Below are positions 1,070-38,533 of a stretch of 64,000 nucleotides of DNA, piece by piece. The DNA is from an uncultured virus (IMG/VR IMGVR_UViG_3300025099_000015). Lineage: Duplodnaviria > Heunggongvirae > Uroviricota > Caudoviricetes. The notes below the pieces were generated by a model. The model was not told the origin of the DNA, searched no databases, and saw only the letters and a program-made list of their open reading frames with translations. Every line of letters starts with the position of its first letter. Within the stretch, counting starts at the first letter, position 1. The DNA lies in the IMG/VR virus record IMGVR_UViG_3300025099_000015. One strand, given 5' to 3'. The translations under genes were made by a program, and so were the position numbers.

Positions 1070-1690
1070 TCATACGTTTATTATATATTTGTCCTTTACT
1101 TCATCACCTGCGAACCATCGTTGCATCCATTGTGCGCCATAACCCGCAATTGCTACGTGAGTGAAGTGTAAATCCTCTGTATTTAAGGATTCATTAAAGT
1201 TCTCTCCTTGACAAGAGAAAGAACCTTCTGGCCCATTTAGTAATGTTTCACTAAAATTGCCCTCTGTAAGATAACTAATCAAAGCACCATTTCTACCTTG
1301 CGCTCTAAGGTCTAACCAATGTGTTTTACAATCATCTTTGAACCCTTGAGCATACAAGAGTTTTCTTACTGCTAGATTATCAGCACAACATATTATTAAA
1401 TCAAAACCTTCTAATTGTTTCTTAGTTAATATCGGATATGCTTTACCTTGACTCAACCCAACATCAGCCAAGTGATTCATACAAGTAGTATTGATACGCA
1501 TTGCAGTTACTTTATTCAATCCAATATCACCATGATTAAAGTTTTGATAACTGATGTTTTTCAAATCAACAGTATCAGGGTCATGCATGTAAATATCATA
1601 CAACCCTGTCCTATGAAGTAGAGGGGTTAGGAAACTACCTATCCCGCCTACTCCAATCACTAGCACCTTTCTTTTTGTTTTTGTTTTCAT
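1070..1690 (-). CDS. ThiF/MoeB/E1-like ubiquitin-like-protein activating enzyme
   Basis: VLVIGVGGIGS nucleotide-binding loop, DPDTVDLKNISYQ, GLNKV, DLIICCADNLAVR; candidate catalytic Cys in FSCQ. Confidence 0.9.
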   Translation of the reverse strand: MKTKTKRKVLVIGVGGIGSFLTPLLHRTGLYDIYMHDPDTVDLKNISYQNFNHGDIGLNKVTAMRINTTCMNHLADVGLSQGKAYPILTKKQLEGFDLIICCADNLAVRKLLYAQGFKDDCKTHWLDLRAQGRNGALISYLTEGNFSETLLNGPEGSFSCQGENFNESLNTEDLHFTHVAIAGYGAQWMQRWFAGDEVKDKYIINV

Positions 1691-11056: not shown

Positions 11057-11614
11057 TTACTCTCTCATATTTATGAGTAATAATACAAGATAACCTATCA
11101 AGTCTTTAATCACATCTTCATCTGATTCCATACTATCATTACCTTGCACAATTCTATTAATTTTATCATCAATTCTTACCTTGATTTGTTCAGTTGTGTC
11201 AGCCGTAGAAAAGACTCTAACTGGCTGTAAAGCGGAGTCGCCATACTGAACATTTTTAGCCAAAAGCATTGTCTTAATTTCATCCATAAGTCCTGCTATT
11301 TTGACCTGGTTCTCACCAAGCACTTGCCTGTCTTTTATAGCCTTTGTTTGTGTGTTTGGTAAAGCACCTTGTTTCAACTTCTTTTGTGTTGTTACTGTCT
11401 TTGGTGTATAGTTTAAATTATTCATCATAATATGTTTCCTAGACACTTTATCTTTACCATATCTCTTAGGTAAAATACCTAACCCTTGTAGGTGGTAAAT
11501 CTTAGAAGTTACTTTACTTTGATTAACATTTAACTCTAATGCTATGTCCTTTGTTTTCATACCTTCTTTATATCGTTTAATTATTTTCTTTTCTTCTTTC
11601 TTGGTTAATACCAT
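11057..11614 (-). CDS. N-terminal HTH fused to DUF1599-like (nucleotide-modification-associated) domain
   Basis: GMKTKDIALELNV HTH; C-terminal KNVQYGDS...VRIDDKINRI...EDVIKDLIGYLVL pattern typical of DUF1599. Confidence 0.65.
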   Translation of the reverse strand: MVLTKKEEKKIIKRYKEGMKTKDIALELNVNQSKVTSKIYHLQGLGILPKRYGKDKVSRKHIMMNNLNYTPKTVTTQKKLKQGALPNTQTKAIKDRQVLGENQVKIAGLMDEIKTMLLAKNVQYGDSALQPVRVFSTADTTEQIKVRIDDKINRIVQGNDSMESDEDVIKDLIGYLVLLLINMRE

Positions 11615-11820: not shown

Positions 11821-11848
11821 GTAGGTAGGTAGGTAGGTAGGTAGGTAG
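11821..11848 (+). repeat. (GTAG)7 perfect tetranucleotide tandem repeat
   Basis: Read directly from the sequence. Confidence 0.95.
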
Positions 11849-12601
11849 TTGTTATATATATTAGTTAGAAATATTATAATATTATAAATATATAATTTTA
11901 ACATACTTACTATACCCTAACCCACTCATTTTGAGCAAACTCATTTCCAATCCAAATTAGAAATTAGAAACGTATTCGATAAACTATCATATCATATAGG
12001 ATATGCCATATTGATATGTGTATAAGATAAGAGATATATTATACATAGATAGCCTTCTCGGTTCATTAATCCTAAACTATGCTTATTCACTGTATAATAA
12101 ATTAAGCCATTAAATGTAATAGGTATAAATAGGCCATTGGCGGAATGCGTGTTTAACAGGCCATTAGATTTTAATTGCCGCCGACATTACAATCAAATCG
12201 AGTTAGTATATATACTGCGCGGCACCACCTCGATGCCCTCGCTCTACAACACGCTATTCTTTTTTTATTACTCTACAACCATATGGTGGCAGAGAGTGTG
12301 CATTAAGCACAAGAGAATCGTCCTTGTGCATACCCTAAAAAACCCCTCGGGTAAGTCCTAAACCTTTTCATTCCATTCATTATGGACTACCATATGGTAG
12401 CAGATATTCAGGAGATGATATGTTATGAACGACAAAGAATAAGAATATCTGCGTATCCACAAATTGAGGCACATCTTTAGTGTGACCATATGGTTCTAAA
12501 CTTTGTCCATAGAACCAGAAGTTTTGGAGACAAGAATAGGTATATTTCAACCTATCCTTGCCTACCGTTGTCGCCGACCAAAACTAAAGTTCAGAAGGCG
12601 A

Positions 12602-13111
12602 TTATTCCTCCTCCTGAACTTCGGTATAAGATGCACATGCATCTAAGCCGTCAGTAGTACCATCCCATTCTTTGGATTTGAATAATTCTCTAGCAGTTTG
12701 CTTGGCTTTAGCCACTAGAGTATTTGCGTAGTCATCGGCATCTAAAAACACAGGTGCGCCTTTAGATTTACCATGCTTTCGTAACAGGGGTTGTGAATAA
12801 GTCTGAGTAGTGGTGAAAAACAGATGAGCCGCTTCTCTAATTTCTGCACAAGCAGTTTCAACAACCATACTTGCCTCAATAGACAATAGTCCTTGATTAC
12901 CTCTTCTCCAGACTACTTGACCTGATGGGAAATCTTTCAACATCGCTTTTACTGATGCCGCTAGTGCGGTTCGGTTTGCGACATTATTATCTCCTGTCTC
13001 CATTAGCATGCTTACTAATGTTTTCACATCAATAGGTATTTCACTATCAATATCCCCATCTAAGCATGAGGCTACTTTATTCTTTACATTATTCCAATTA
13101 CTTTCTTCCAT
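12602..13111 (-). CDS. Orphan protein, cassette paralog 1
   Basis: 169 aa; shares MEE/D-x-x-WN start, HGKS-x-G, D/E-YA, WDGT and terminal QEEE with 15305..15844; has its own promoter-like motif. Confidence 0.8.
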   Translation of the reverse strand: MEESNWNNVKNKVASCLDGDIDSEIPIDVKTLVSMLMETGDNNVANRTALAASVKAMLKDFPSGQVVWRRGNQGLLSIEASMVVETACAEIREAAHLFFTTTQTYSQPLLRKHGKSKGAPVFLDADDYANTLVAKAKQTARELFKSKEWDGTTDGLDACASYTEVQEEE

Positions 13112-13158
13112 TTTAATTACCTTCCAATAATCCTTTCTTCCCTTTAGTTAGGTCAGCG

Positions 13159-13217
13159 ACATTATAATCTAACATAGTTAGTATATAAGGGGTTCTTGAC
13201 AAAGTCGAACCATATGG
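13159..13217 (-). promoter_or_regulatory. Conserved archaeal-type promoter (cassette 1)
   Basis: Minus strand reads CCATATGG-ttcg-ACTTTGT...CCTTATATACTAACT-N7-ATTATAATGT; near-identical to 13589-13651 and 17089-17149. Confidence 0.7.
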
Positions 13218-13588
13218 TAGGCTTGCTGAGAAATTAGAGATATATGGCATTAAGCCATCTCCTCTGCAAAACGTAAGTGGGGATACCTCATTTGTGTGGA
13301 GAAATCTATCATGAACAAATAATGTATTTCACGGTATTACTAAGGTAGCACTATTATTGCGCTACCTTATTCATACTGTTATGTTCATACATTACCTTTT
13401 ATCACTTCATGACCCTCCATATGGTTGTAGCGAAGGGATTGTTTCATTCCATCAAGTCTTCAAAGGATGAATACATATACTCTTCTGATATTTCTTTATC
13501 AGGCGTATTCAGCCAACGAAGCGCAGATGCAATGATTACAATACCAAGTGTAAGCCCTAAAATCTGGTTCTGTCCAATCTACGATGAA

Positions 13589-13651
13589 CCATATGGTAGG
13601 ACAACTTTGTTAAGGACTACCTTAAATACTAACTAATATCTATTATAATGT
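13589..13651 (+). promoter_or_regulatory. Conserved archaeal-type promoter (cassette 2)
   Basis: CCATATGG-taggaca-ACTTTGT...CCTTAAATACTAACT-N7-ATTATAATGT. Confidence 0.7.
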
Positions 13652-13772
13652 AGACAGCCCACCAATGCTTGACCGCTATCCAACAACGTGATGATGCCAT
13701 GAGACAATCTAAACGTATTTATTGGAAGTATAGCCACTTGGTTAAGGGCTGTCTCACCCTTTGGTGATTTTA

Positions 13773-13976
13773 ATGAATAACGAAACTACTACTATTATAC
13801 AACAAGTAAATGCCCCTAAATATGCTATCAAATTAAAGCATATGAAATCAGGACAGAACATTGTCCTCTCTATTGAGGAATTGAAGGTATCTGGTGATGA
13901 CCTTTCTATGGTTATGTCCGAATTAAGACAGGCTTTAGACGAATATATGTCTATAACGGGGGAATCTGAAGATTAA
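13773..13976 (+). CDS. Small hypothetical protein (67 aa) in cassette 2
   Basis: ATG at 13773 preceded by GGTGA ribosome site; ORF track 13761..13976. Confidence 0.65.
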   Translation: MNNETTTIIQQVNAPKYAIKLKHMKSGQNIVLSIEELKVSGDDLSMVMSELRQALDEYMSITGESED

Positions 13977-15196
13977 CTTCAGGTTCTATAGACAAAGTTT
14001 AGAACCATATGGTGTTAGATAAAACGATACTGTGTAGATTATAATCTAGTCAGTTGGCATTAGGCCAAGTCTAGCACCAGAGGGGCGGATGTTAGGACGG
14101 GTAGATGATAAGAATACACTCAAAGACAAAATATATTTTTACAAGGTGCAAAAGGGGGCTTTACAGAGTTTTAACCGATAATATTACGCAGTGGCTTAAT
14201 GCCACTAAATGCTAAATTAATATCATCTGAATCTGCAAAACCCCACTCTTTGCACTCTCAGAAAAATATATTTTTCTTCAGTTCCATCTTTACACTACCA
14301 TATGGTTGATTTTACATAATCTACGAAAATGGAAACATTTGCGTAGTTTAGTTAAGCGGTTAGCGGAAGTCAATCCCATTTTTGGCAATCGGGAAATGTC
14401 TCGTAGTATTAATCGGTCAGAGCCGCCCTAGACCTCTATACTACGTTCCTTGCTTAATGCAACCATATGGTTATACATTGTTAGTGGAGGAGGTTTCCTC
14501 TCGGAACGCCATGTATAATCCTCATTTGGGGGTTTATGTTTTACCCTGTGCTTAATGCACACCCATATGGAAGTAGCGTTGTTGTAATGTGTCATTAAGA
14601 ACACTTGCTAGGCAAGGACAACGTTAGCGGTTTCCACAATGGGGTAAGTTATAGACCAGTCTATTAACAACCATATGGACAAGAGAAAATACGCATTAAG
14701 CGTAAATAACGTGGTTTAGGGCTTGACCCCATTCAAAAATGGGGCATGGTCTATACATTATACAGTTTACAATGTTCACGGTATAAGTAATGTAGCACTA
14801 TTACTGCGCTACCTTATTGATACCTAAATGTTCACATCAAACTGTATTTCAATTATGACCAACCATATGGTTGATAAACGTATGTAAGTGGCATTAAGCC
14901 ACATCTTGAGGACAGTTTACAATCCCAAGATATCGGATATTGTACCAACTAAGCCGACAACATGTCTTGACGGATGCTTCTCATCGTTACTCTACGACTA
15001 GACGATGACAAGTCTCCTTACAACCCATAACGTCTATCGTTTTACACTACCATATGGGTGTAACCCTTAAGGCACGAATGGCTAATTCTTTCGCTCAATC
15101 ACAATTATATATTCAACGTATTGCTAGGACTTAATGTCCTTACTAATATATAATTACTCTTCGCTACAAGCAATTACCAATTACCACTTCGTTGTT

Positions 15197-15257
15197 CCAT
15201 ATGGTGTGATACTTTGTGGATGAACACCTTAAATAGTAAGTTAAAATGACTGTAATG
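15197..15257 (+). promoter_or_regulatory. Conserved archaeal-type promoter (cassette 3)
   Basis: CCATATGG-tgtgat-ACTTTGT...CCTTAAATAGTAAGT-N7-ACTGTAATG. Confidence 0.65.
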
Positions 15258-15304
15258 AAGGTGGCCTAACACCTAGTTATTTATATAACTTGGAGGAATA
15301 AATT

Positions 15305-15844
15305 ATGGTAGATTACAGTATGGAAGATAACACATGGAATGCGAAGAAAGAATTGATTGCAGAATGGTTCGATGCGAACCCTCAACATGAGGGTAGACGA
15401 GTCATTGCTGATGGACTATTTGCGATAGGTGACATGCAAAGCGACCTTCGTAAGAAGCATTGGTCTAGCATTAGTGGGATATTTGCTGATTTGAGCAATT
15501 CCCCTATTGGCGGCGGTAGAAGGTCATTGATGACAACCGCTATTAAATCGGATTTTGATACATACAAAGCAGATTATTGGCAGTATCAATATGACGTAGC
15601 ATACAATCAAGAACGCGGTTTTGCTAAAACACACGGTAAATCCGGCGGTGTCCTCTATAGAGATATGGATGATGGCCGCACAGAATACGCTGACAATCAA
15701 ACTAAGGTTATGTCCTTATTTTTGAGTCAATGCTACAATGCGTATGCTAAGAATGACGTATCAAAGCGTTATTTCTGGGATGGGACTTTCACACTAGAAG
15801 GTTATCCTAATGTAGTAGATAATGGGGGACAAGAAGAAGAGTGA
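15305..15844 (+). CDS. Orphan protein, cassette paralog 2
   Basis: 179 aa, GGAGG ribosome site; MEDNTWN, KTHGKSGG, EYAD, FWDGT, QEEE shared with 12602..13111. Confidence 0.8.
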   Translation: MVDYSMEDNTWNAKKELIAEWFDANPQHEGRRVIADGLFAIGDMQSDLRKKHWSSISGIFADLSNSPIGGGRRSLMTTAIKSDFDTYKADYWQYQYDVAYNQERGFAKTHGKSGGVLYRDMDDGRTEYADNQTKVMSLFLSQCYNAYAKNDVSKRYFWDGTFTLEGYPNVVDNGGQEEE

Positions 15845-16669
15845 TTAGGTGATAGGCCACCTTCACCCTTCTTTTTGTCCCTTTTTTCAGGTTCACGTTC
15901 TTTTAACAAAGTATTACCACTCCCACCATATGGTTGCAGTTCGTGATAAACACGGCCAACGGCAGTAGTTTATCTAACGATACAAATACATAGTTTGCCC
16001 CAGGTCTTAAACTTTATGTGGAGAGAGAGCATTGTCAAATCTACTTCGTAGCAGACTTAATGTCCTTTGTATGACTAATGCCCCCCATCCATATGGTGTT
16101 AGGAAGAACTATACTTATTAGTTCATAGAAACTAAGAAGTGGCGTTAAGCCAAGTCTAACACCAGATAACCTGAAGTCTCCCGCCCTCAAGACGGGTAGA
16201 TGATAAGAATCACTAGAATAAATAATATTTATGCGGGACATTTGTGTAGCGTATACGTGCTTTCCCTATACGCATTATGAATACAAGGGCTAAATGCCCT
16301 ATACTGTATTATTCATAATACTAGAAAAGCACCGTAATCGCACACACCATACCCGCATAAATATATTTATCCTGTTCCTTTCTTTACACTACCATATGGT
16401 GTCATAACGTAGTATAGATAGTCCCCAATACGTTTGGGGTCGGCCTAAGTCTTCCCACCACGGTTCTAGGCATAATGCCTGAGACTAGACTCCTACCATA
16501 TGGAACAATGAAATGGTTTTTTGTGATTTTTGAAATGGTGAAGGTTTTTTAACATGGTATAGTGCATTTAGCACTTGATTACAATTAATGTGAAAAAGCG
16601 TGAAGCCATGAAATAATAACGAAAAAGTCTCCTTAAGGGCTACACCCATATGGGTGTATACTTTGTTAA

Positions 16670-17090
16670 TAAACCCACAAGGTCGAGCGTTGTTTATAAC
16701 ACCTGCAACCTACTAACGCACTAATGGCTAGCCTTTCGGTTGGATGCACTGGAATAACTTACGGGATTTCCACTTCTATTTCCCACTCGTTTATGTGGTC
16801 TAGTTTTTTATTTTATGAGTCCATTAAACTATCGTTTGGCTCAATCCTTGAAACTAGAAAAACAGGGGAGTGAGTGGGTTGATATTTCTACCGTCCACCA
16901 ATTCTGAATGGGTATCTATATTCGCATGTAGCATTCACCCCAGAAAACTTACCATAGAAGAGTTACCTTCCTTTCACTGACCGACTTATTATTATCGGCC
17001 TCGTTGTTCCACCACAGAACATGGCATTCCATTAGCCCTAGATAACGGACTTATTCTGGCACACTCATGTCGAGTTACGTTTCCTCGACA
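16670..17090 (-). ncRNA. Putative ~420-nt structured non-coding RNA (cassette 4)
   Basis: Downstream of a conserved promoter, no ORF of 60 aa or more in the track, several stems (ATGTCGAG/CTCGACAT, CTAATGG/CCATTAG, CCCACTC/GAGTGGG, CTAGTTT/AAACTAG). Ends are approximate. Confidence 0.5.
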
Positions 17091-17149
17091 TTATAATAGA
17101 TATTGATTAGTATTTAAGGTGTTATACCACAAAGTATAACACCATATGG
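17088..17149 (-). promoter_or_regulatory. Conserved archaeal-type promoter (cassette 4)
   Basis: Minus strand reads CCATATGG-tgttat-ACTTTGT...CCTTAAATACTAATCAATATCTATTATAATGT, almost identical to 13620-13651. Confidence 0.7.
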
Positions 17150-18959
17150 TTGTAATAGTATCTAGGTAATAGAACTATAAGGCATTAAGCCGTTCTATGG
17201 ATACTATGCTAACAACCAGAAGGGGAGACACCTGGGGAGGAGACGACATGGGGTAGATGTTATTGTTTAGTATACTGTAACTCTAATGTCTCTTCCAACT
17301 GTAAGGCTAGTCCAAATAAACATTGGCTTAATGCCAATACATTACTTACCTGAACCAGTTTAGGTTCAGCGCGTATGTATGCTGTTAAATATTCTCCTAG
17401 CCTTGAAAGTTTCCGAAGACTTAGGTAAAGTAACCTACACTTTAACACTACCATATGGTTATATTCGGGGAGATATAGGAGAAGACGGTTGAATATCAGA
17501 TGTTCTTGGAGTGCGCCTTCGCACTCACTAGAACCATGCATTAAGCATGATGATATCGTCTTCTTCCTATATAGAGTCAATAATAACCACATTTGTGGTA
17601 TTGATAATAGTTCCCCTGACTTTACTCCGTTTAGGCAAATTGCGGAACATGGTTGCACGGTAAGTATTACTTAAGCCGCCACATACAACTGTGCTTAATG
17701 CACTATTCGTTTTATGTATGTTTGCGTGATAATACTTACCAGTTCACCTCGTTCCTCCATTGCCTAAACAGAGTAAACTCAGATATAACTTAACACTACC
17801 ATATGGTTCGCATTCTTAGTAGATATGCGTTTAGCAATAAACAACGGGAGTGGTTGGTGTGTCGCTAAGAATTGTGACCGCATTGGGGATAATCTAAACT
17901 ACGTTTATGATACCATATGATTGTATTTGTTTGAGCGTAGCGAGTTCAATCTAATAGATTGGGACTCACCTTTTGTTCGGTCAACGTCCACTCAGGCCGT
18001 TTCACGTTGCTTCATTACCGACCTCCCTTACAACAGTGTGCTTAATGCACAATCATATGGTATTAAATTACATCCTTCAATATTTTTAGTAACGTAGTGG
18101 TAAAAGTGTTGTGATGAAACATTCAGTAAAAGTGAAGCGTTTCAATGCTTTTAACTAGAAATAGCAGGATGATGTAACAGCGAAGCGTTTCATATCCTTA
18201 AGGCTGCTTAACGCTACGCTACACCCATATGGTTGCATAAAAGATGCAGATAGATGGGAGTGTATCTCCAGCATTCGTGTGCAGTGGTGAAAGGTGATGC
18301 ATTAAGCATCAGTGAAACGTCTATTGAAACTACGCACGGAGAATGCTTGGTAGATATCACACCCAACTACTGATATTTTATGTGATTAAACCCGACCCTT
18401 AAGGTGTGATTCATTCACACTGCTTTAACCTCCTTCTTCTGGTCTCCCCTCCTCTCTACTATTGCTTAACGCAACTATACGTTATTCCGAGGGAGAGTAA
18501 GACCATCATCAGTGGTTAACGCTTTACGTTTCTCCCACCATATGCTTTGTCCTTCGATTTTTTTTTATTTTAATTGACATAAGATTTTGTCTTTAGAAAC
18601 CCTAAATTAATATAGTGTTACTCATGTGGGTCTAATAGAAGGCTGTTGAGCATCAATGTATGAATCGCTATTAATAATTAATTCGCGGTGCATCAAGGAT
18701 ACAAATGAATCAATAAAAGAATACACATTAACCACCAATGCTCAAATAAACCCTCACTACAGGTAATGAATTAATTCTTATTCTGGGAATGGACAAAAAA
18801 GAGCAAAAAAATAAACGCAAGTGCCAGAAAAATAACACCCCAAAAATAGGATAAAAAAGGTCTAAAAAATATGCCCCAAAAAAATGGTGAGAAAATGAGA
18901 ATGCCGAATATGTTCTATAATCAAGGTAGTATGTACCATCCTGTAAAGGGGGTTTTACA

Positions 18960-19833: not shown

Positions 19834-19947
19834 ATGAATTGGTTTAATGTTGTTAAGAAAAATCCTTGTTGGGATGGTTATGAACAAATAGGTATGAAAG
19901 ACAAAAATGGAAAACAAGTTCCAAATTGCGTACCAATAAAGAAGTGA
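19834..19947 (+). CDS. Micro-protein with CWxGY...VPNCVP motif
   Basis: Manual translation MNWFNVVKKNPCWDGYEQIGMKDKNGKQVPNCVPIKK; the motif is familiar from marine phage proteins. Confidence 0.7.
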   Translation: MNWFNVVKKNPCWDGYEQIGMKDKNGKQVPNCVPIKK

Positions 19948-19951
19948 TATA

Positions 19952-20443
19952 ATGAATTGGTTAGATGTTATTAAACGTAAACGCGGTAATAGGCGTAAGC
20001 GTGTGCCGTATAATCCATTTACTGGAGAAGGCGATAAGCCTGTAAACATAGAAGATAGAATGAAAGCAAGGGATGAAAAGACCAAAGAAAGAGAAGCAAA
20101 GGTTGCTGAAAGTTTTAAGAAAGTTCCTAGAGCAAGAATATCTATACAACGTGGTGGTGGCAATAAAGTCCATCCCCACACGAATAGGCGTAAGTCGAGA
20201 TATGAGTTGGCACCAGAAGGTGCTAATCTTAATCCGGCATCTAGGTGTGCAATGTGTGGAATTAAATTGACTAATAATCAGCAAACTAAAACATTAAACA
20301 ATGCCGCAGATTTAAATTATTGTGCTGCTTGTGCTAGAACTATTGAAGGAAAACCTGTTGCTTCGCGTAGAACTAATGCTAAAGGTCAGATTATACCACT
20401 TGATAATGCTAATAAAAGGCCATATAAAAAGAGGCGATTGTAA
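19952..20443 (+). CDS. Basic Zn-finger protein (W-x-x-I-x-K family)
   Basis: MNWLDVIKR; CAMC...CAAC. Confidence 0.65.
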   Translation: MNWLDVIKRKRGNRRKRVPYNPFTGEGDKPVNIEDRMKARDEKTKEREAKVAESFKKVPRARISIQRGGGNKVHPHTNRRKSRYELAPEGANLNPASRCAMCGIKLTNNQQTKTLNNAADLNYCAACARTIEGKPVASRRTNAKGQIIPLDNANKRPYKKRRL

Positions 20444-20688
20444 TGAGTTGGAAAGAAGTAATTAAGGAATATGAAGGTAGCATAGAAGAACAAAAGCACA
20501 TTGAAACAATGGATAAGATTAGGGCTTTGTTGGAAGAAGGAGATACCTCAAATGCTCTTGATTTGGCTATGAGATTATTAGGTCAATTCACCGATGGTTT
20601 CTTTGGGGATATTCACGATATTATAAGAAAAGAGGTAGGCGAAGAAGGCCTAAGAGATATAATAGAAGGAATTGCGTTTGGATATTGA
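20443..20688 (+). CDS. Hypothetical protein (W-x-x-I-x-K family)
   Basis: MSWKEVIKE; overlapping stop/start. Confidence 0.65.
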   Translation: MSWKEVIKEYEGSIEEQKHIETMDKIRALLEEGDTSNALDLAMRLLGQFTDGFFGDIHDIIRKEVGEEGLRDIIEGIAFGY

Positions 20689-20698
20689 GGGATTTAGA

Positions 20699-20836
20699 AT
20701 GAGTTGGGAAGACATAATTAAAATGAAATGCATGATGTGTGGTGCTAAATTAGAAAAGCAACCTTCTAAAACTAAATATGCAAGAAATAGAGCAATATAT
20801 CTTTGTCCCGAATGCGGTCATAAGGAAGTCTTTTAA
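20699..20836 (+). CDS. Micro Zn-ribbon protein (45 aa, W-x-x-I-x-K family)
   Basis: Manual translation MSWEDIIKMKCMMCG...CPECGHKEVF. Confidence 0.7.
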   Translation: MSWEDIIKMKCMMCGAKLEKQPSKTKYARNRAIYLCPECGHKEVF

Positions 20837-21171
20837 TGAGTTGGATGGCTATTTTAAAAAATGTTGATTTAGATGAAGACAATTGCTGTGAAGCATTGGC
20901 TACAGATTTAGAACTACTATTTGAAAATCTTATTTTTAATGACTTTGTGAGTTTTATTAAAAAGAATAAAAATAATTGTGAGGTATTAGTTCCTGAAGTA
21001 GAAAGAATATTGGGTGAAGGTATGTCGTATTTCAAAAGAAAATATATAATTGATTCACAGATACTTTCTGTTGCTGATGAAGGCGAAATATATCAAGTAA
21101 TAAAAGACATGTATGCTAAATATTTAGATTGTAATGAGGATTTACTATCAATGGGAGAGGACATGAGATGA
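20836..21171 (+). CDS. Hypothetical protein (W-x-x-I-x-K family)
   Basis: MSWMAILKN. Confidence 0.65.
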   Translation: MSWMAILKNVDLDEDNCCEALATDLELLFENLIFNDFVSFIKKNKNNCEVLVPEVERILGEGMSYFKRKYIIDSQILSVADEGEIYQVIKDMYAKYLDCNEDLLSMGEDMR

Positions 21172-22088
21172 AGTGGTTTAACATAATTAAAGACTTTAAG
21201 TATTCTCATGGTAAATATGCCGATGTTGATTCACAAGGTTTACAAGGTTATCGAGGAGTGCCTAAAGAAGCGGCAGGGTTTTCACGCGGAAACATAGCAA
21301 GTATTAATTTAAGTGCTAATGCATGGAAAAATATGTTGTATGATAAAGACGGTAATTACGAACAAGAAAATGAAGAACAAGTAATAAGAGAAATGAGCAA
21401 TACATTGAGTCATGAATATGCACATGTGTTATTCCATAAACTTTCTGGGTATACTGGTTTAAAATCTGAAATAGGTGGAGTTATGTCAGATATAATGCTT
21501 GGATTACTATTAGAGATTGATGACAAGAATCTGTTTGATTTAGATGAAAAAACTAGCAAGTTATTAGCGGCGTGTAAAAAACATGCAGCAACAATTATAC
21601 TTGATGAATTATATGCAGGGTATGCAGGTAAAAGTGTTGAAGGAATAAGCAGAATAATAATAGATAAATACAAAGATTATTGGCGAGACGATTTTAATAA
21701 TACTCTTCGGAGAACAAAATCTAGTGTAATTAATAGACTACAAGAGGCAATAGGAGAAAGTGAAGAGTTTTCTCACATGGAAAAGTTAATTATAGACATA
21801 AGATTCCCTAATGTAGTAGAATACATGGGACAAATTACGCAGTTAATGGAACGTGCTTGGTCTGAAACTGTAGACTTTATTTATAAACGGATGCTGGATG
21901 TTCAACAAAAGAGGTTTTACTTAGGCACACTACCTGAAAGAGAAAACACTACCATAGGAGAAATGACAGTTATGATTAGTAGATACATAGACAACGCAGG
22001 TTATGAGGATATTCAAAGATATATTAATGGTGAAGATTTAAACGATAAAGTGCTTGAAGAAATTGGTTTTAGTAGGAGGAGAGGATAA
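21168..22088 (+). CDS. Putative zincin-like metallopeptidase (W-x-x-I-x-K family)
   Basis: MKWFNIIKD; TLSHEYAHVLF HExxH motif with downstream DELYA Glu. Confidence 0.55.
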   Translation: MKWFNIIKDFKYSHGKYADVDSQGLQGYRGVPKEAAGFSRGNIASINLSANAWKNMLYDKDGNYEQENEEQVIREMSNTLSHEYAHVLFHKLSGYTGLKSEIGGVMSDIMLGLLLEIDDKNLFDLDEKTSKLLAACKKHAATIILDELYAGYAGKSVEGISRIIIDKYKDYWRDDFNNTLRRTKSSVINRLQEAIGESEEFSHMEKLIIDIRFPNVVEYMGQITQLMERAWSETVDFIYKRMLDVQQKRFYLGTLPERENTTIGEMTVMISRYIDNAGYEDIQRYINGEDLNDKVLEEIGFSRRRG

Positions 22089-22243
22089 TGAAGTGGTTTA
22101 CAATGATAAAGCATAGAAAGATGTGTGAAAATCCTGGGTGTTATAACCGAATGTCTCCTACTGCAAAGTCTAAAGGAAAAAAAATATGTGCCACTTGTGT
22201 TAGAAGAAGTGGTAAAGGTAGAATGCGAGTTAATAAGGAGTGA
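22088..22243 (+). CDS. Micro Zn-finger protein (51 aa, W-x-x-I-x-K family)
   Basis: Manual translation MKWFTMIKHRKMCENPGC...CATC. Confidence 0.65.
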   Translation: MKWFTMIKHRKMCENPGCYNRMSPTAKSKGKKICATCVRRSGKGRMRVNKE

Positions 22244-22785
22244 TTACTATAATTTGGTTTAATGTTCTAAAAATATCCACTAGGGATGCTATCAGTGATG
22301 CAAAAAGATTTGCGCCTGAAATGATAAGAGAACAAGAAAAATTAGATAGAGAAGAAAAAGAAGAAGGGATAAAACGTGCTAACCAAGCAGATAAAACAAA
22401 ATATTATGTTCCCCCTGAACAACTTCCTAGAATAAACGATTATCGGTTTGCACCTAAAGCATCAAAAACTAGTCGCGGTCAAACTACTACTAATTGGCAT
22501 TCTTTTCTTAGGACTTATATTCCATATTTTGTTACTGATGCAGAATATATTACATATAAAAAGAATAAAAGAGACTTAAATAAATACAGTAAGATATGGG
22601 AAAACTCTCGTCAATTACTTCCTCAAGAACAGGAATTAGTAGAAAAAATGGCAGATGAAAATGCAGAAATATATGCGACTGCTATTTGGAGATGGGATTA
22701 CTTTTATCATGGTACTCGTTTCTTTGAAGAAGGCAAAGAAGAAGGATTGAGGCAAGAGAATGCAAGGTTTTGGGGTAGAGAATAA
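22240..22785 (+). CDS. Hypothetical protein (W-x-x-I-x-K family)
   Basis: IWFNVLKI near the N-terminus. Confidence 0.6.
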   Translation: MITIIWFNVLKISTRDAISDAKRFAPEMIREQEKLDREEKEEGIKRANQADKTKYYVPPEQLPRINDYRFAPKASKTSRGQTTTNWHSFLRTYIPYFVTDAEYITYKKNKRDLNKYSKIWENSRQLLPQEQELVEKMADENAEIYATAIWRWDYFYHGTRFFEEGKEEGLRQENARFWGRE

Positions 22786-23138
22786 TGACTTGGTTTGAAT
22801 TAATTAAATCTGGCGAACTAAAAGAGTTTGAGGTTCTAGCACAAAAATATGCAGAACCTACCGACTTAACCCATTTAGATTATCTTAGAAAGAAACATGG
22901 TAAGAAAAGCAAAGAGTTCTATGATATATTAAATAAACAAATTATTGAAACAATAGATGATAATTGGTCTAGTTTACAAGATATTGCTAAATCACTAAGA
23001 GATAAAAACCCAGGATTAAAAGATGCAGATGAAAACTTAATATCATTTTTGAGAAAAAGGTTAGATAACATGGATGTAAAAACATTCCAAGAACCTGCTG
23101 CGGGAAGAACAGGAAAGAAAACATATTACAAGGTGTGA
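22785..23138 (+). CDS. Hypothetical protein, possible winged HTH (W-x-x-I-x-K family)
   Basis: MTWFELIKS; SSLQDIAKSL...GKKTYYKV. Confidence 0.6.
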   Translation: MTWFELIKSGELKEFEVLAQKYAEPTDLTHLDYLRKKHGKKSKEFYDILNKQIIETIDDNWSSLQDIAKSLRDKNPGLKDADENLISFLRKRLDNMDVKTFQEPAAGRTGKKTYYKV

Positions 23139-23142
23139 TTAA

Positions 23143-25398
23143 ATGGATAATGACAGTATAATAAAGGCCTATGATGACATCCTAAAAAAACTAGGAGTAG
23201 GAAGAGAAGTAGGGACAGAAAAAACTGCTCAAAAGTTTTGGATGGATTTTTTACAGCCTTTTGGTTTTAAACCACAACAAGCATTTCCTGATAATATGAC
23301 TTTAGGAACAAATAGAAACTCTGGAGATGCTTCTATTGGTAGAACAACAACTGTATTAAATCATTTATTTGAACCTAAATGGGTTACTCATACTTACTAT
23401 GATTTAGATTCTGGCATTCCTCTTTACACTAGAACAGAAGGTGAGACTTCTGGTAATTTAATAATACGTGGTGGATTAATAGGAATGAAAGATGTAGCAG
23501 GTAATAGAGTGCCTACTGATGACCCGTTAAAAACCACAATAGATAGAAAATCTGGTAGAGCATCAAAAATGGTTAGAGCATCTCAATTATTAGATGTAGA
23601 TAAAAAGAGCGATAAAGGTTTTGCTTCTATTCCTAAACCCCCTAAAGGTTGGATTGATAATTATAAAACTCTTGATTCGCAAGTTAATTATTTAGAGGAC
23701 AATTTTCCAGAATACAATAATTATTTAGTAGAGTATTTACACAAACCTATCGAGGGAGAAGGTATTTTACAAGAATTACAAGTTTCTAAAACTCAAGCAG
23801 ATTTTGTAGCGGTTGTTAATGATTTAATTAGAAAACAATATCCTGGTCTTGTTAAAGAAATCTTAGAAGAAGCCAGACAAATGAATAAAGATAAGTGGCA
23901 CATTACTGTGGCCGCTAATGAAAGATTAAAATCTCCATTAATGAAGACAGGATTTAAGCCTTTAACCCCAGAATATATGGAAGAGTTATTATCTGATAAA
24001 AGCGGTAGTGTTTCAGATTATATTAAAACGGCAATAGAACGCATTAAAAGTAAAGATGGAAGATTAACCGGAAAGAATAGCGAATACTTTATTAGAACAC
24101 CTAGAGGAGACCCAATAAACCCACTAAGTAAATCCGCGTGGGCTAAAACTTTACGAGGCGATAATATGTTTGACAAAATAAAGAAAGGCAAAACTACACA
24201 TTGGTTTGATTTATTAAAGTTTAAAGGACGTTGGGATGATAAAGATGATGATGATATGGCTTTACCCGCAGGTGGTGGCCCTTCTAAAAAGCCTAAAAAT
24301 CCAGAAGATGATAATACTATTAGAGAAAGAGAATCCCCGAAGAGATGGAAAGATGATTGGAAAAAAGATAACAACATAGACCCAATCACAGGAAAAAGAA
24401 GAAAGGCAAGTAAACTAGCAGAAGGAAGAGAAACAGTAGGAACAGATACTTTCTGTTGTGGTAAAATTAGACAATACCTAAAAGATTATGTAGAACTAAC
24501 ATCATTTACAGATGACTATCAATTAAGAATGATGGAGGAATGGATAGATGAAAACATTACTTGTTCAGACATTGAGAAGGCTATGGCTGTTAGAATATCA
24601 GTAGTAGACAGTTATGGAAACGTGAACAATAACCCTACAATAGCAGACTTACACAACGCAAGTCGAGATGATATAAAATCTGATGTAGGAGGAGATAAAG
24701 GATTTACTATACCTTTAGAGTTTGATGAAGATAGTGGTGAAGTATCTGGTAATAAAGAAATAAGAATACCTGCAAACGAAATGAACTTTTTCTCTAACGT
24801 TGCAGGTAAGTTATCTTTCTTACCAAAAGAGTATTGGGATGCAAAACCAGATAGACCTAGTAAAAAGATAATAAATGGCAGAAGAGTGCAGGTTGGAGGT
24901 TTAGGAATGACTTTGGCTATGGCTTATCATATATGCATACAAGACCATGTTCAAAGTAAATTAACTGAAATAAGCGATAATTTAGAAAATGAAGAGTTTT
25001 ATGCAGATGTTGGTGTATCTACTGATAAACAAATGAAATTGAAAATAGATATATTAGATGCTTTCAAACAAAGAGGTGGATATGTAGGGCCAGGAGGTCA
25101 GTTTAATCCGGCAGAGATGCAAAAATACCCAGATTTGTGGACTAGATGGCAAAGAGCAAGTCAAATATCTCCAGACTCTGGTAAAGGAACAGGGTTCCAA
25201 ACAGAAAATGAAATGAACTCACAAGACCTTGCTAGAGAAAGGCTTTGGGATTATATAGATGAAATGAGAGGTAATGAGGTAAATCAAGAAGAGAGGCAAA
25301 GGAAAAGAAACGCCAACCCATTACCAAGATACCCAGAACCTCCAAAGAAAAAAGATGAGGATGAAGAAGATGGTAATGATGACGCACAAATGGTTTGA
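23143..25398 (+). CDS. Large hypothetical protein with internal WFDLLK motif
   Basis: 751-aa ORF. Confidence 0.7.
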   Translation: MDNDSIIKAYDDILKKLGVGREVGTEKTAQKFWMDFLQPFGFKPQQAFPDNMTLGTNRNSGDASIGRTTTVLNHLFEPKWVTHTYYDLDSGIPLYTRTEGETSGNLIIRGGLIGMKDVAGNRVPTDDPLKTTIDRKSGRASKMVRASQLLDVDKKSDKGFASIPKPPKGWIDNYKTLDSQVNYLEDNFPEYNNYLVEYLHKPIEGEGILQELQVSKTQADFVAVVNDLIRKQYPGLVKEILEEARQMNKDKWHITVAANERLKSPLMKTGFKPLTPEYMEELLSDKSGSVSDYIKTAIERIKSKDGRLTGKNSEYFIRTPRGDPINPLSKSAWAKTLRGDNMFDKIKKGKTTHWFDLLKFKGRWDDKDDDDMALPAGGGPSKKPKNPEDDNTIRERESPKRWKDDWKKDNNIDPITGKRRKASKLAEGRETVGTDTFCCGKIRQYLKDYVELTSFTDDYQLRMMEEWIDENITCSDIEKAMAVRISVVDSYGNVNNNPTIADLHNASRDDIKSDVGGDKGFTIPLEFDEDSGEVSGNKEIRIPANEMNFFSNVAGKLSFLPKEYWDAKPDRPSKKIINGRRVQVGGLGMTLAMAYHICIQDHVQSKLTEISDNLENEEFYADVGVSTDKQMKLKIDILDAFKQRGGYVGPGGQFNPAEMQKYPDLWTRWQRASQISPDSGKGTGFQTENEMNSQDLARERLWDYIDEMRGNEVNQEERQRKRNANPLPRYPEPPKKKDEDEEDGNDDAQMV

Positions 25399-28330: not shown

Positions 28331-28510
28331 ATGGGTTGGAAAGATAAACTATTAAAAGAGGACACCGGACTTGGCGATACTGTTGAGAGGGTTACTAAGG
28401 CGACAGGCATCAAAACTGTTGTTGATAAAGTAGCCAAAGCGACAGGTAAAGATTGTGGTTGTAAGGCTAGAAAAAACAAATTAAATAGGAGATTTAGTTA
28501 TGATTCTTAA
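28331..28510 (+). CDS. Small conserved phage-type protein (GLGDT...DCGC motif)
   Basis: Manual translation MGWKDKLLKEDTGLGDTVERVTKATGIK...DCGCKARKNKLN. Confidence 0.7.
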   Translation: MGWKDKLLKEDTGLGDTVERVTKATGIKTVVDKVAKATGKDCGCKARKNKLNRRFSYDS

Positions 28511-29072
28511 GAAAGACTATTCCAGAACCTATGACCTTATTCTTGCTGAATTACAAGAAGATGGATACATGGCTATGGTGCAGTATTTAGAACAAAATCC
28601 TCCTTTAAAGACTAAAGGAACAATGTATAGTGGTGATTTAGTAGATGCTTTAATTGCCGCTAAAACTAATGCGAATGATGATTTTGGTGCGTATGTATCC
28701 CCTCCATTAAAATTAGCAGAAATGGATTCTGTTAGGCCTCATTCTAATTTAAGATTAATGTTAAGAAATAGAGATGATGGTGAATGGTTTAATGCGTTAA
28801 AAGCACCAAAATTAATGGCTAGACCACAAGAACCAGAAACTAGATTTGATGATGATACAGAATTAGAATCATTTAATGATGATGGAGAAGATGAGTGTGA
28901 GTGTGATGAAGTAAATTGTGATGCTCATGCTGTCTATAAAAATGAACAACATAATAGTCAATTATGTGATGAGCATTTTGCTGAAGTAGTTAGAAGTCTT
29001 GGCGGTAATCATGGCTATAGACCGTGGGACTGTGAATCAGATGAATACTATCAATATAGGGAGGACTTATAA
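28500..29072 (+). CDS. Hypothetical acidic protein
   Basis: 190 aa; internal EWFNALKA. Confidence 0.6.
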   Translation: MILKKDYSRTYDLILAELQEDGYMAMVQYLEQNPPLKTKGTMYSGDLVDALIAAKTNANDDFGAYVSPPLKLAEMDSVRPHSNLRLMLRNRDDGEWFNALKAPKLMARPQEPETRFDDDTELESFNDDGEDECECDEVNCDAHAVYKNEQHNSQLCDEHFAEVVRSLGGNHGYRPWDCESDEYYQYREDL

Positions 29073-37231: not shown

Positions 37232-38533
37232 ATGATGAGTGAAAGAGCAGAAGCATATCGTAAACTAGCAGATGAAGAAGATAATATAGAAGAAGTCAAA
37301 GAAGAAATGACTAGAATTAAAGAAAGCATGGAACAAAAGTGGTTAGAATCTCAACCAATTAGAAGCCATGATGATATTGCTAAAGATTATGCTAGTTTTG
37401 CTAAAATAAATCTTACTGAGGCTAGAAATACACTTTTTGAATATCCTAAGAAATATGAAATAGAAGGTAAAGATATACCTTCATTAATTAAGTCAATGAG
37501 AAAATATAGAAGAACTCTAAAGGGTGAAACTAAAATAGCATTCACCAAATCCATAGATAATTTGATTGAGGATTATTCTGATTACTTAACTAAATGTATT
37601 CGCAGTATTTATTGGATAAGAAAGTATGAAACTCCTTTGAGACAGATGAATTATAATGAAGATAAATTAATTAAATTAAACTCTATAACTTCTGAAGACC
37701 AGAAGAGAGAAGTCATTGACGTTTTGTGTAAATATTGGGAAGCAGACCAAGAAAGAAAACATTTGAATTATGGTGAAAAATATTGTGAATTAACTAAAGA
37801 GATGAAAAATCTAAAGAAAAACTTCACGAAAATAATAAAAGAAACCCCTATAAGTATATCACCAAAGGATAGTATAAGGAAAGCGATATTAGATTCTGTC
37901 TGTAATAACCCTGGAATATCCTCAAGAGAGATACATGATTCATTACCTAGAAACTTATACGATAGAAGTTCCCCCCAAATAATAGCAAAACTTGCAGTAG
38001 AACAGAATATTACAAACGTAGATGGGGCGCACTATAAAATAAATGACGATATTAAGAAAAACATTTGGGCTTATACAGCCGCATTCATAGATTCAGACGG
38101 ATATATTACAATGGATAAAAACCATAACCCAAGAGTAGGATTAGTAGCAACAGGTAATAGAGGCAAGGCGTTTATGTTAGAGATGCACAAATCATTAGGT
38201 ATGGGTAGATTACACCTAGACCAGAAATCTCCACAAGATACTAGGTTAATTAATAGACTCAACTTTTATTCTGGAGGAGACATTAAGAAATTATTAACCA
38301 AGTGTTTACCTCACTTTAAATTAAAGAAAAATAACGCTAACGCATTATTAGAGTTAATTAAAATAAAGAAAGAAAATAAAAAAGAAGATTGGTATAAAGA
38401 TAGAAAGGATGAATTATTCAAATTAATGAAATATTATAATCATAGTGATAATACCAGATTTGATTGGAAAGCATGGGATATTGATATTGACGGTATAACT
38501 AAACTAGAAGAGAATAGTAAAATGGAGTTCTAA
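37232..38533 (+). CDS. Protein with C-terminal single-motif LAGLIDADG endonuclease domain
   Basis: WAYTAAFIDSDGYI; KCLPHFKLKK; long N-terminal helical/wHTH region. Confidence 0.8.
   Translation: MMSERAEAYRKLADEEDNIEEVKEEMTRIKESMEQKWLESQPIRSHDDIAKDYASFAKINLTEARNTLFEYPKKYEIEGKDIPSLIKSMRKYRRTLKGETKIAFTKSIDNLIEDYSDYLTKCIRSIYWIRKYETPLRQMNYNEDKLIKLNSITSEDQKREVIDVLCKYWEADQERKHLNYGEKYCELTKEMKNLKKNFTKIIKETPISISPKDSIRKAILDSVCNNPGISSREIHDSLPRNLYDRSSPQIIAKLAVEQNITNVDGAHYKINDDIKKNIWAYTAAFIDSDGYITMDKNHNPRVGLVATGNRGKAFMLEMHKSLGMGRLHLDQKSPQDTRLINRLNFYSGGDIKKLLTKCLPHFKLKKNNANALLELIKIKKENKKEDWYKDRKDELFKLMKYYNHSDNTRFDWKAWDIDIDGITKLEENSKMEF

What the first reader, a model, noticed from the sequence alone, without database searches (positions are those of the whole stretch)
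12569..15865. Cassette transcripts have complementary 5' and 3' ends that clasp the whole gene
Seen: 15256-15280 (TGAAGGTGGCCTAACACCTAGTTAT) pairs with 15841-15865 (GTGATTAGGTGATAGGCCACCTTCA) over 25 nt with one A-A mismatch and three G-U pairs, enclosing ORF 15305-15844 and including its stop codon. 13142-13161 pairs with 12569-12589 around ORF 12602-13111, with a G-U pair on the minus strand. 13652-13660 pairs with 13746-13754 to close a ~100-nt hairpin. Each 5' arm starts at the predicted TSS. The arms differ in sequence between paralogs yet keep pairing, and the wobbles work on the coding strand, suggesting selection on RNA structure. Inference: panhandle mRNAs for stability, processing or circularisation, as with archaeal pre-rRNA processing stems.
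Basis: partly seen in the sequence, partly recalled or inferred. Interest (0 to 1): 0.8.

Follow-up and report, generated by a model that had tools for sequence, protein, structure and literature searches.

The report
Clasped mRNAs of marine archaeal viruses
In ocean viruses of archaea, the messenger RNAs of one unnamed protein family have matching first and last stretches that can zip together around the whole gene, probably protecting the RNA from decay the way transfer RNAs are protected.

Summary
The pairings are in the sequence as described. The window is a magrovirus-like virus. The two ORFs are paralogs of an unnamed ~170-aa family that sits in CCATATGG-bounded cassette arrays. In 57 of 61 non-redundant homologous cassettes the 5' leader pairs with the region just past the stop (median -32.8 kcal/mol; -17.0 for swapped partners); 0 of 46 ordinary genes do. 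Arm sequences diverge but stay complementary (24 of 58 5' changes compensated; 2-8 in slid registers). RNA contigs from three metatranscriptomes cover only these two genes and a manA cassette, and stop within or near the arms. No BHB motif was found (0 of 57 strict). G-U strand bias is not significant (65:51). The third example closes only a 5' leader ahead of a 67-aa ORF. Best reading: a linear, end-protected, long-lived mRNA whose ribosome site stays open. This function is inferred, not tested. Rivals are BHB-free ligation, closed-loop re-initiation and protein-read ends.

The parts
12279..18545 (.). Cassette array bounded by the palindrome CCATATGG (23 exact sites, none elsewhere in 64 kb; near-matches at 17913, 18053, 18538); cassettes are moved and flipped at this site in a 93%-identical relative
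12486..13217 (-). Cassette A (732 bp): palindrome plus end hairpin at both ends, TATA-like box at the 13210 end only
13182..13188 (-). TATA-like box of cassette A; predicted start G13160
   Evidence: spacing rule recalled
13142..13161 (-). 5' arm of clasp A
   Evidence: RNA contigs stop at 13142, 13142, 13146
12602..13111 (-). ORF A, 169 aa, helical, unnamed family, acidic tail
12569..12589 (-). 3' arm of clasp A
   Evidence: RNA contigs reach 12570 and 12576
12531..12560 (-). Hairpin downstream of clasp A, not covered by RNA contigs
13589..14012 (+). Cassette C (424 bp) with TATA-like box 13622-13628 and predicted start G13650
13650..13757 (+). ~105-nt structured leader closed by the 13652-13660/13746-13754 stem ('mini-clasp', no conserved ORF inside)
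13773..13976 (+). 67-aa ORF downstream of the leader, not clasped
15197..15933 (+). Cassette B (737 bp)
15229..15235 (+). TATA-like box of cassette B; predicted start G15257
   Evidence: an RNA contig begins at 15257
15256..15280 (+). 5' arm of clasp B; can also fold as a local hairpin 15259-15274
15292..15297 (+). Shine-Dalgarno-like GGAGGA, outside the 25-bp clasp
15305..15844 (+). ORF B, 179 aa, paralog of ORF A (about 21-24% identity)
15841..15865 (+). 3' arm of clasp B, overlapping the stop codon; can also fold as a local hairpin
15866..15890 (+). Short C-rich overhang and U-rich tract (likely terminator)
   Evidence: inference
16867..17090 (-). manA-like RNA (54.3 bits, gathering 55.2, E 5.5e-12) in the fourth promoter cassette 16646-17149; context, not clasped

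Best explanation
Each gene of the ~170-aa family is a stand-alone transcription unit that makes a discrete ~590-610-nt RNA. Shown: the first ~12-25 nt are complementary to the ~25 nt at and after the stop codon, and evolution keeps this pairing rather than the sequence. Predicted: while the RNA is being made, the 5' arm folds as a small local hairpin; when the 3' arm appears, the two zip into a GC-rich end-to-end helix of 9-15 bp plus a looser inner helix, leaving a few unpaired C-rich 3' bases. Inferred: this removes the single-stranded ends that exonucleases need, so the mRNA lasts like a tRNA or other stable RNA while its ribosome-binding site stays open. The result would be lasting synthesis of a protein present in most of these viral arrays. 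The RNA is probably linear.
For: 57 of 61 cassettes have an own-ends duplex of -24 kcal/mol or stronger; the own partner ranks first in 43 of 61. 0 of 46 ordinary genes reach this. Unfitted alignment: 122 of 143 cells paired, against 49-67 when slid. In 24 independent sister pairs, 24 of 58 5' changes were compensated, against 2-8 when slid. 41 of 55 pair at 10 or more of 12 positions from a TSS predicted without using pairing. The clasp dominates the ensemble in 55 of 57 full RNAs, and ribosome-site openness is unchanged (0.56 vs 0.54). The 5' arm forms a local hairpin in 38 of 57. RNA contigs from 3 studies cover only A, B and manA out of 6.4 kb and end within or near the arms. The archaeal exosome threads single-stranded 3' ends (PMC7667871, passages). 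The clasped aapA mRNA is called highly stable (PMC6733600, passages).
Against: No half-life was measured. Contigs give no strand, level or true ends, and no contig holds both arms in full. No silent control stretch outside the array was laid. G-U is not enriched on the coding strand, unlike typical RNA stems. In sister pairs 42 one-sided and 11 two-sided changes break a pair under sequence-only mapping; some are register slips, and they were not checked one by one. Four family members (L009/L030 clade) have no clasp. A bare protective stem does not explain the self-complementary arms, the stop codon pairing in 20 of 57, or the reuse of similar arms on ORF-less leaders. The ensemble test used ends chosen from the predicted helix, at 20 C.
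Confidence: 0.58

Rival explanations
1. The clasp holds the ends together for ligation into a circular mRNA, either by BHB cleavage or by an ATP-dependent RNA ligase that only needs a terminal stem.
For: Archaeal Rnl circularises C/D sRNAs only when the terminal stem is intact (PMC9014305, passages). One RNA contig of a relative (run X23, record 14, 177 nt, depth 265) runs from the end of arm B back into the coding region. With the one-codon-shorter relative its lengths fit a 147-nt cycle, so this 3' end has been joined at least once (my inference from loose-end letters, whole record not seen).
Against: BHB 0 of 57 strict, 1 relaxed. The 5' arm starts at the predicted TSS, so there is no outer precursor helix. 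No 5'-to-3' joint was seen in 3 RNA runs. The one back-joint goes to an internal site and could be library self-ligation.
Confidence: 0.12
2. Closed-loop translation: the helix places the stop codon next to the Shine-Dalgarno and start, so a terminating ribosome re-initiates on the same mRNA.
For: The 3' arm begins at or just after the stop. The stop is paired to the 5' leader in 20 of 57, and the inner end usually lies about 11-33 nt upstream of the ATG. Termination-reinitiation works in archaea when stop and start are close (PMC6728339, abstract).
Against: The geometry varies (stop unpaired in 37 of 57). Similar stems close ORF-less leaders. Re-initiation across a helix is not shown in the abstract I read.
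Confidence: 0.12
3. The ends are recognition elements: a protein (possibly the encoded one) or a polymerase binds the terminal helix. This would make the RNA an RNP scaffold, an autoregulated mRNA or a replicon-like RNA. The short leaders would be end-keeping derivatives.
For: Both arms can fold on themselves with complementary loops. Both strands pair about equally well (34 vs 29 of 64). Coding regions are more folded than codon-shuffled copies (12 of 12 at z <= -1.5; controls 4 of 12). ORF-less leaders carry similar arms in 10 of 31 homologues. The protein has conserved basic motifs and no known fold.
Against: Arm sequences differ widely, also between paralogs. No reverse transcriptase was found in 5 near-complete relatives; RdRp was not searched. 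There is no strand data, and RNA binding was not tested.
Confidence: 0.13
4. The arms are DNA inverted repeats (binding or recombination sites, or transposon-like ends) and RNA pairing is incidental.
For: No G-U strand bias. The region is recombinationally active.
Against: The 5' arm is tied to the TSS. RNA contigs end at the arms. Rearrangements break at CCATATGG, not at the arms. A TATA-like box lies at the ORF's 5' end only in 83 of 107 copies and at the 3' end only in 3; two of these three show a box at the 5' end by eye, so the ORF is not seen flipping between the arms. The arm sequence is not conserved.
Confidence: 0.05
5. A hok/aapA-type silenced toxin mRNA in which the 5'-3' pairing blocks translation until the 3' end is trimmed.
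For: Same topology: transient 5' hairpins replaced by a long-distance helix (PMC6733600, passages).
Against: Ribosome-site openness falls by more than 0.1 in only 3 of 57 and rises in 13. The protein is 160-200 aa, not a short membrane peptide. An antisense TATA-like box is seen in at most 12 of 107.
Confidence: 0.04

Closest known systems
Type I toxin mRNAs with a 5'-3' long-distance interaction (hok, aapA of Helicobacter; PMC6733600, passages)
   Same: mRNA whose two ends pair around the ORF; transient hairpins during transcription; very stable full-length RNA
   Different: Here the ribosome site is not masked, the protein is about 170 aa, no antisense promoter is evident, and the host is archaeal
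Terminal-stem stable RNAs of archaea (C/D box sRNAs circularised by Rnl, PMC9014305, passages; tRNA, SRP and RNase P end helices, recalled)
   Same: 5' and 3' ends held in a helix with a short 3' overhang
   Different: Those are non-coding; here the helix encloses a conserved, intact ORF with a Shine-Dalgarno site; no Rfam family matches the arms
BHB processing stems of archaeal pre-rRNA and tRNA introns
   Same: Long-range helix flanking a large RNA
   Different: No BHB motif; the helix begins at the predicted start of transcription
Panhandle ends of RNA viruses and polymerase-templated RNA replicons (recalled)
   Same: Complementary termini, self-complementary arms, no strand bias, shorter derivatives with similar ends
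   Different: Transcribed from a DNA promoter in a tailed virus; no reverse transcriptase found in 5 relatives; no evidence of minus strands
PeSL cassettes of T4-type phages (PMC2839356, abstract)
   Same: Promoter-plus-hairpin cassettes that shuffle accessory genes (applies to the array)
   Different: The abstract describes local terminator stem-loops, not a helix joining a transcript's ends; the boundary here is an 8-bp palindrome

Membership tests
BHB-processed archaeal circular RNA (pre-rRNA, tRNA intron) | Bulge-helix-bulge (3-4-3) or relaxed motif in the end helix | tested here: not met
   0 of 57 strict, 1 of 57 relaxed
BHB-processed archaeal circular RNA (pre-rRNA, tRNA intron) | Back-joined junction between the two arms | tested here: inconclusive
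   None in contigs of 3 RNA runs; contigs drop rare forms
Rnl-circularised terminal-stem RNAs (C/D box sRNA type) | Terminal stem bringing the ends together | tested here: met
Rnl-circularised terminal-stem RNAs (C/D box sRNA type) | C/D boxes or match to a known sRNA family | tested here: inconclusive
   No Rfam match near a gathering score on A, B or the leader; boxes not searched separately
Rnl-circularised terminal-stem RNAs (C/D box sRNA type) | 5' monophosphate and ligase-dependent circle | not testable with these tools
   Needs raw reads or a bench assay
Type I toxin mRNA with 5'-3' pairing (hok, aapA) | 5'-3' long-distance helix preceded by transient 5' hairpins | tested here: met
   Predicted; 5' hairpin in 38 of 57, clasp in 55 of 57
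Type I toxin mRNA with 5'-3' pairing (hok, aapA) | Shine-Dalgarno masked in the full-length RNA | tested here: not met
   Openness 0.56 full vs 0.54 truncated; lower in 3 of 57
Type I toxin mRNA with 5'-3' pairing (hok, aapA) | Small toxic peptide and cis antisense RNA | tested here: not met
   160-200-aa proteins; TATA-like box at the 3' end in 12 of 107; toxicity itself untested
RNA replicon or RNA-virus panhandle | Complementary termini | tested here: met
RNA replicon or RNA-virus panhandle | RNA-templated polymerase available | tested here: inconclusive
   RVT_1: 0 of 5 over cut-off, the weak hit is a head-protease-like gene; RdRp not searched; the host polymerase cannot be tested
RNA replicon or RNA-virus panhandle | Minus-strand RNA | not testable with these tools
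   Only unstranded contigs were available
tRNA-like 3' end (CCA-added) | End helix with NCC(A) overhang | tested here: inconclusive
   First three overhang bases are ACC in 8 and CCC in 9 of 41, others vary; the single back-joint fits an added A but also two other readings
tRNA-like 3' end (CCA-added) | T-loop or cloverleaf | not tested
   ARAGORN not run
PeSL-like shuffled cassettes (array context) | Promoter cassettes exchanged between related viruses at a shared element | tested here: met
   no tyrosine recombinase in 10 records

The most novel reading that the evidence does not exclude
The clasped RNAs are a new class of protein-coding stable RNA: kissing-loop ends zip into a terminal helix that a dedicated factor reads (the encoded paralog pair, a ligase or a polymerase). 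This makes the RNA a circular, packaged or self-copied RNP that outlives transcription of the virus. The ORF-less leaders are end-keeping derivatives or decoys.
Probability: 0.17. Interest if true: 0.9.

Novelty: new variant of a known kind. Interest (0 to 1): 0.64.

Why it matters
Paired ends are a mark of stable non-coding RNAs, of silenced toxin mRNAs and of RNA virus genomes. Here a widespread family of archaeal DNA-virus genes keeps such a helix around an apparently translatable ORF, across proteins that are about 20% identical. My paper searches did not show this for archaeal or phage mRNAs. If it stabilises the RNA, it tells how viruses of uncultured marine archaea keep chosen messages alive. 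It also supplies dozens of natural, mutually orthogonal end-clasps that can be tested in a model archaeon. It singles out an unnamed protein family, present in every array found independently of it, as central to these arrays.

Tried and rejected
BHB or relaxed BHB search: negative. G-U strand bias: not significant. Translation switch by ribosome-site masking: no effect. Six apparent clasp failures (L146, L158, L161, L162, L199, L200) came from variant boundary sites and were re-anchored. One frameshifted copy (L065) and 18 hits without both boundaries were dropped before counting. Protein identity: no Pfam, PHROG or PDB-sequence match; no convincing solved fold (best Z 6.7 on a three-helix part); only unnamed BFVD models. 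The ESM Atlas portal-like clusters shared under 170 features and were rejected. No match in annotated phages or in bacterial and archaeal genomes (pattern-limited). A second wide fold search never finished, and the A-B complex prediction never ran, so protein partnership is untested. A 590-aa cluster member is not a tandem copy but a fusion to unrelated sequence, probably a misassembly. The family does not track the pentaloop cassettes. Lack of RNA contigs over the short cassettes and the leader is not evidence of silence. No tyrosine recombinase or reverse transcriptase. Paper searches showed no description of these clasps. Term searches in two magrovirus papers (PMC5434244, PMC11706807, passages) found no 'palindrom' or 'non-coding'. 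Supplements of PMC10690425 were not read and could list RNA candidates from these arrays.
Full report
Setting. The window encodes a terminase, portal and major capsid protein. The capsid's nearest annotated relatives are haloarchaeal tailed viruses HVTV-1 and HCTV-1, and the DNA occurs in marine metagenomes. I read this as a magrovirus-like virus (PMC5434244, passages); the host was not tested. Between two divergent gene arms, at the GC-skew minimum, lies an array cut by 23 exact copies of CCATATGG, with none elsewhere. In a relative about 93% identical, the units are moved and flipped at this palindrome. I found this before seeing that the scan had described such arrays on other genomes. Four cassettes in the window have an end hairpin on both sides and a TATA-like box on one side. 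The finding concerns three of them.

Observation. All three pairings are as written. The two gene-spanning duplexes reach -38.7 and -37.1 kcal/mol; 46 ordinary genes have median -7.9 and none reaches -24. The fourth cassette holds a manA-like RNA just under Rfam's gathering score and has no clasp.

The genes. ORFs A and B are paralogs of a family with 277 representatives at 50% clustering. It has no Pfam, PHROG or solved-structure match. Both models are mainly helical (pLDDT 85 and 89). The family has 2-3 copies in 21 of 22 distinct array contigs (after merging 5 duplicate loci). Most of these contigs were found with the protein itself. Among the 7 found by a DNA pattern alone, 7 have at least one copy and 6 have two or more.

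Is the clasp selected? From 192 profile hits I kept 107 distinct complete cassettes; duplicates, 18 hits without both boundaries and one frameshifted copy were dropped. These reduce to 61 below 85% identity in the untranslated ends. In 57 of 61 the own-ends duplex is -24 kcal/mol or stronger (median -32.8; swapped partners -17.0), and the own partner ranks first in 43. The four misses form the L009/L030 clade. In a sequence-only alignment of 11 genes, 122 of 143 cells pair, against 49-67 when slid. In 24 disjoint sister pairs, 58 5'-arm bases changed; the partner changed in 37 and the pair was kept in 24, against 2-8 in slid registers. Against this, 42 one-sided and 11 two-sided changes broke a pair. 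From a start site predicted without using pairing, 41 of 55 pair at 10 or more of 12 positions. Among 246 other cassette orientations sorted by strength, the strongest gene-spanning cases were family members, and the next group were leaders of the 67-aa gene (the middle of that list was cut from view).

RNA evidence. I laid 3 of the 6 listed RNA runs and one DNA run on 12200-18600. RNA contigs, from relatives about 95% alike, cover only 12570-13146, 15257-15867 and 16680-17086. Contigs of A stop at 13142, 13142 and 13146 on the 5' side and reach 12570 and 12576 on the 3' side in two runs. Contigs of B start at 15257 and 15265 and end at 15826, 15838 and 15845. So each RNA is discrete and bounded by its arms, but no single contig holds both arms in full, and contigs give no strand, level or true end. 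One 177-nt contig of a relative continues from 15867 into 29 letters of coding sequence. With the one-codon-shorter relative seen in L146 and P0248, its lengths fit a 147-nt loop with a 30-letter overlap (assembler word length recalled). This places a 3' end 1-2 nt past the arm. It may be a small circle or a library ligation, and I saw only the record's loose ends. No joint links the two arms.

No strict BHB occurs in 57 helices, and one relaxed motif does. G-U pairs on the coding strand are 65 against 51 A-C (p 0.23), or 18 against 11 when isolated (p 0.26). The wobbles in the window are real, but they do not show strand-specific selection across the family.

Extra anatomy. The 5' arm folds on itself in 38 of 57 cases and the 3' arm in 21 (p <= 0.1 against shuffles; about 6 expected). 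In B and many relatives the two loops are complementary, and the closed form is far more stable. The clasp dominates in 55 of 57 full-length folds and leaves the ribosome site as open as in a truncated RNA. With transcript-sized ends B folds closed; with wider flanks it did not. Coding regions are more folded than codon-shuffled copies in 12 of 12 family genes (z -1.5 to -5.6), but 3 of 12 controls also reach -3.6 or lower. The 67-aa gene has little or no leader in most of 31 homologues. Ten of them, the window's included, carry an 85-145-nt leader closed by a stem near the start, and several of these arms resemble family-B arms.

Mechanism. Shown: conserved end-to-end complementarity tied to the predicted start and to the stop, and discrete RNAs. 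Predicted: a transient 5' hairpin replaced by the clasp. Inferred: protection from exonucleases. The archaeal exosome threads single-stranded 3' ends (PMC7667871, passages); a like need of 5' exonucleases is recalled. I put this at 0.58. BHB-free ligation remains possible, since archaeal Rnl needs only a terminal stem (PMC9014305, passages). Closed-loop re-initiation (PMC6728339, abstract) and protein- or polymerase-read ends each get about 0.12-0.13, and they do not exclude a stabilising role. DNA repeats and hok-type silencing are unlikely.

Comparison and novelty. It works like the terminal stem of a stable RNA and has the topology of hok/aapA mRNAs (PMC6733600, passages). It fails membership of the BHB and type I toxin classes. 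The array resembles PeSL cassettes (PMC2839356, abstract; lead from earlier notes). manA is described from marine metagenomes and cyanophages as a possible cis element (PMC2864571, passages). Nine paper searches, of which I saw the listings, and a look-up in this scan's notes showed no account of the clasp. Subscription journals are not covered, and the supplements of PMC10690425 (passages only) were not read. Verdict: a real, selected feature; a new variant of a known kind; interest 0.64.

Noticed in passing
window 12279-18545: About 25 cassettes bounded by CCATATGG, reordered and inverted in relatives at that site; no tyrosine recombinase in 10 related records. Already noted by this scan on other genomes.
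   Followed up: partly
window 16646-17149 (minus): A manA-like RNA sits as a stand-alone promoter cassette with no conserved downstream gene seen; RNA contigs extend beyond the Rfam model (16680-17086) in 3 studies, suggesting an independent ~400-nt RNA rather than a riboswitch.
   Followed up: partly
window 12300-18472, 18 sites: Hairpins with a constant five-base loop on varying stems in the short cassettes; frequent only in the window's own clade.
   Followed up: partly
window 12486, 13210, 13589, 14005, 15197, 15926, 16646, 17142: Promoter cassettes carry a CTTTG-containing motif, usually in a hairpin loop, just inside the palindrome at both ends; short cassettes do not.
   Followed up: no
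window 13650-13757; L153, L154, L149, L142, L005, L157: The same 67-aa gene is leaderless in some viruses and carries a structured leader with clasp-like arms in others, as if an RNA module was inserted or an ORF-less clasp remained.
   Followed up: partly
run X23 record 14, matching window 15823-15867: Probable back-joint from the RNA's 3' end to a site 147 nt upstream; one reading of the joint has a non-templated A completing CCA.
   Followed up: partly
L009 5773-6342 and 7160-7753; L030 4173-4805 and 7067-7552: A divergent clade of the protein family without clasps; a natural comparison group.
   Followed up: no
window 13328-13387 / 14775-14834 and 14005-14305 / 16089-16399: Pairs of paralogous non-coding cassettes inside the array.
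   Followed up: no
window 11827-11849: Short tandem run of GGTA units upstream of the array, before an AT-rich stretch.
   Followed up: no
window 19836-25398: A row of ORFs, many starting with a similar M-x-W-x-x-I-I-K-like motif.
   Followed up: no
window 37232-38533: ORF between terminase and portal whose C-terminal part looks like a LAGLIDADG-type domain (my recall from the translation; not scanned).
   Followed up: no
window 1070-1690, 11057-11614, 28500-29072: Three ordinary genes whose coding regions fold much better than codon-shuffled copies (z -5.5, -4.2, -3.6).
   Followed up: no
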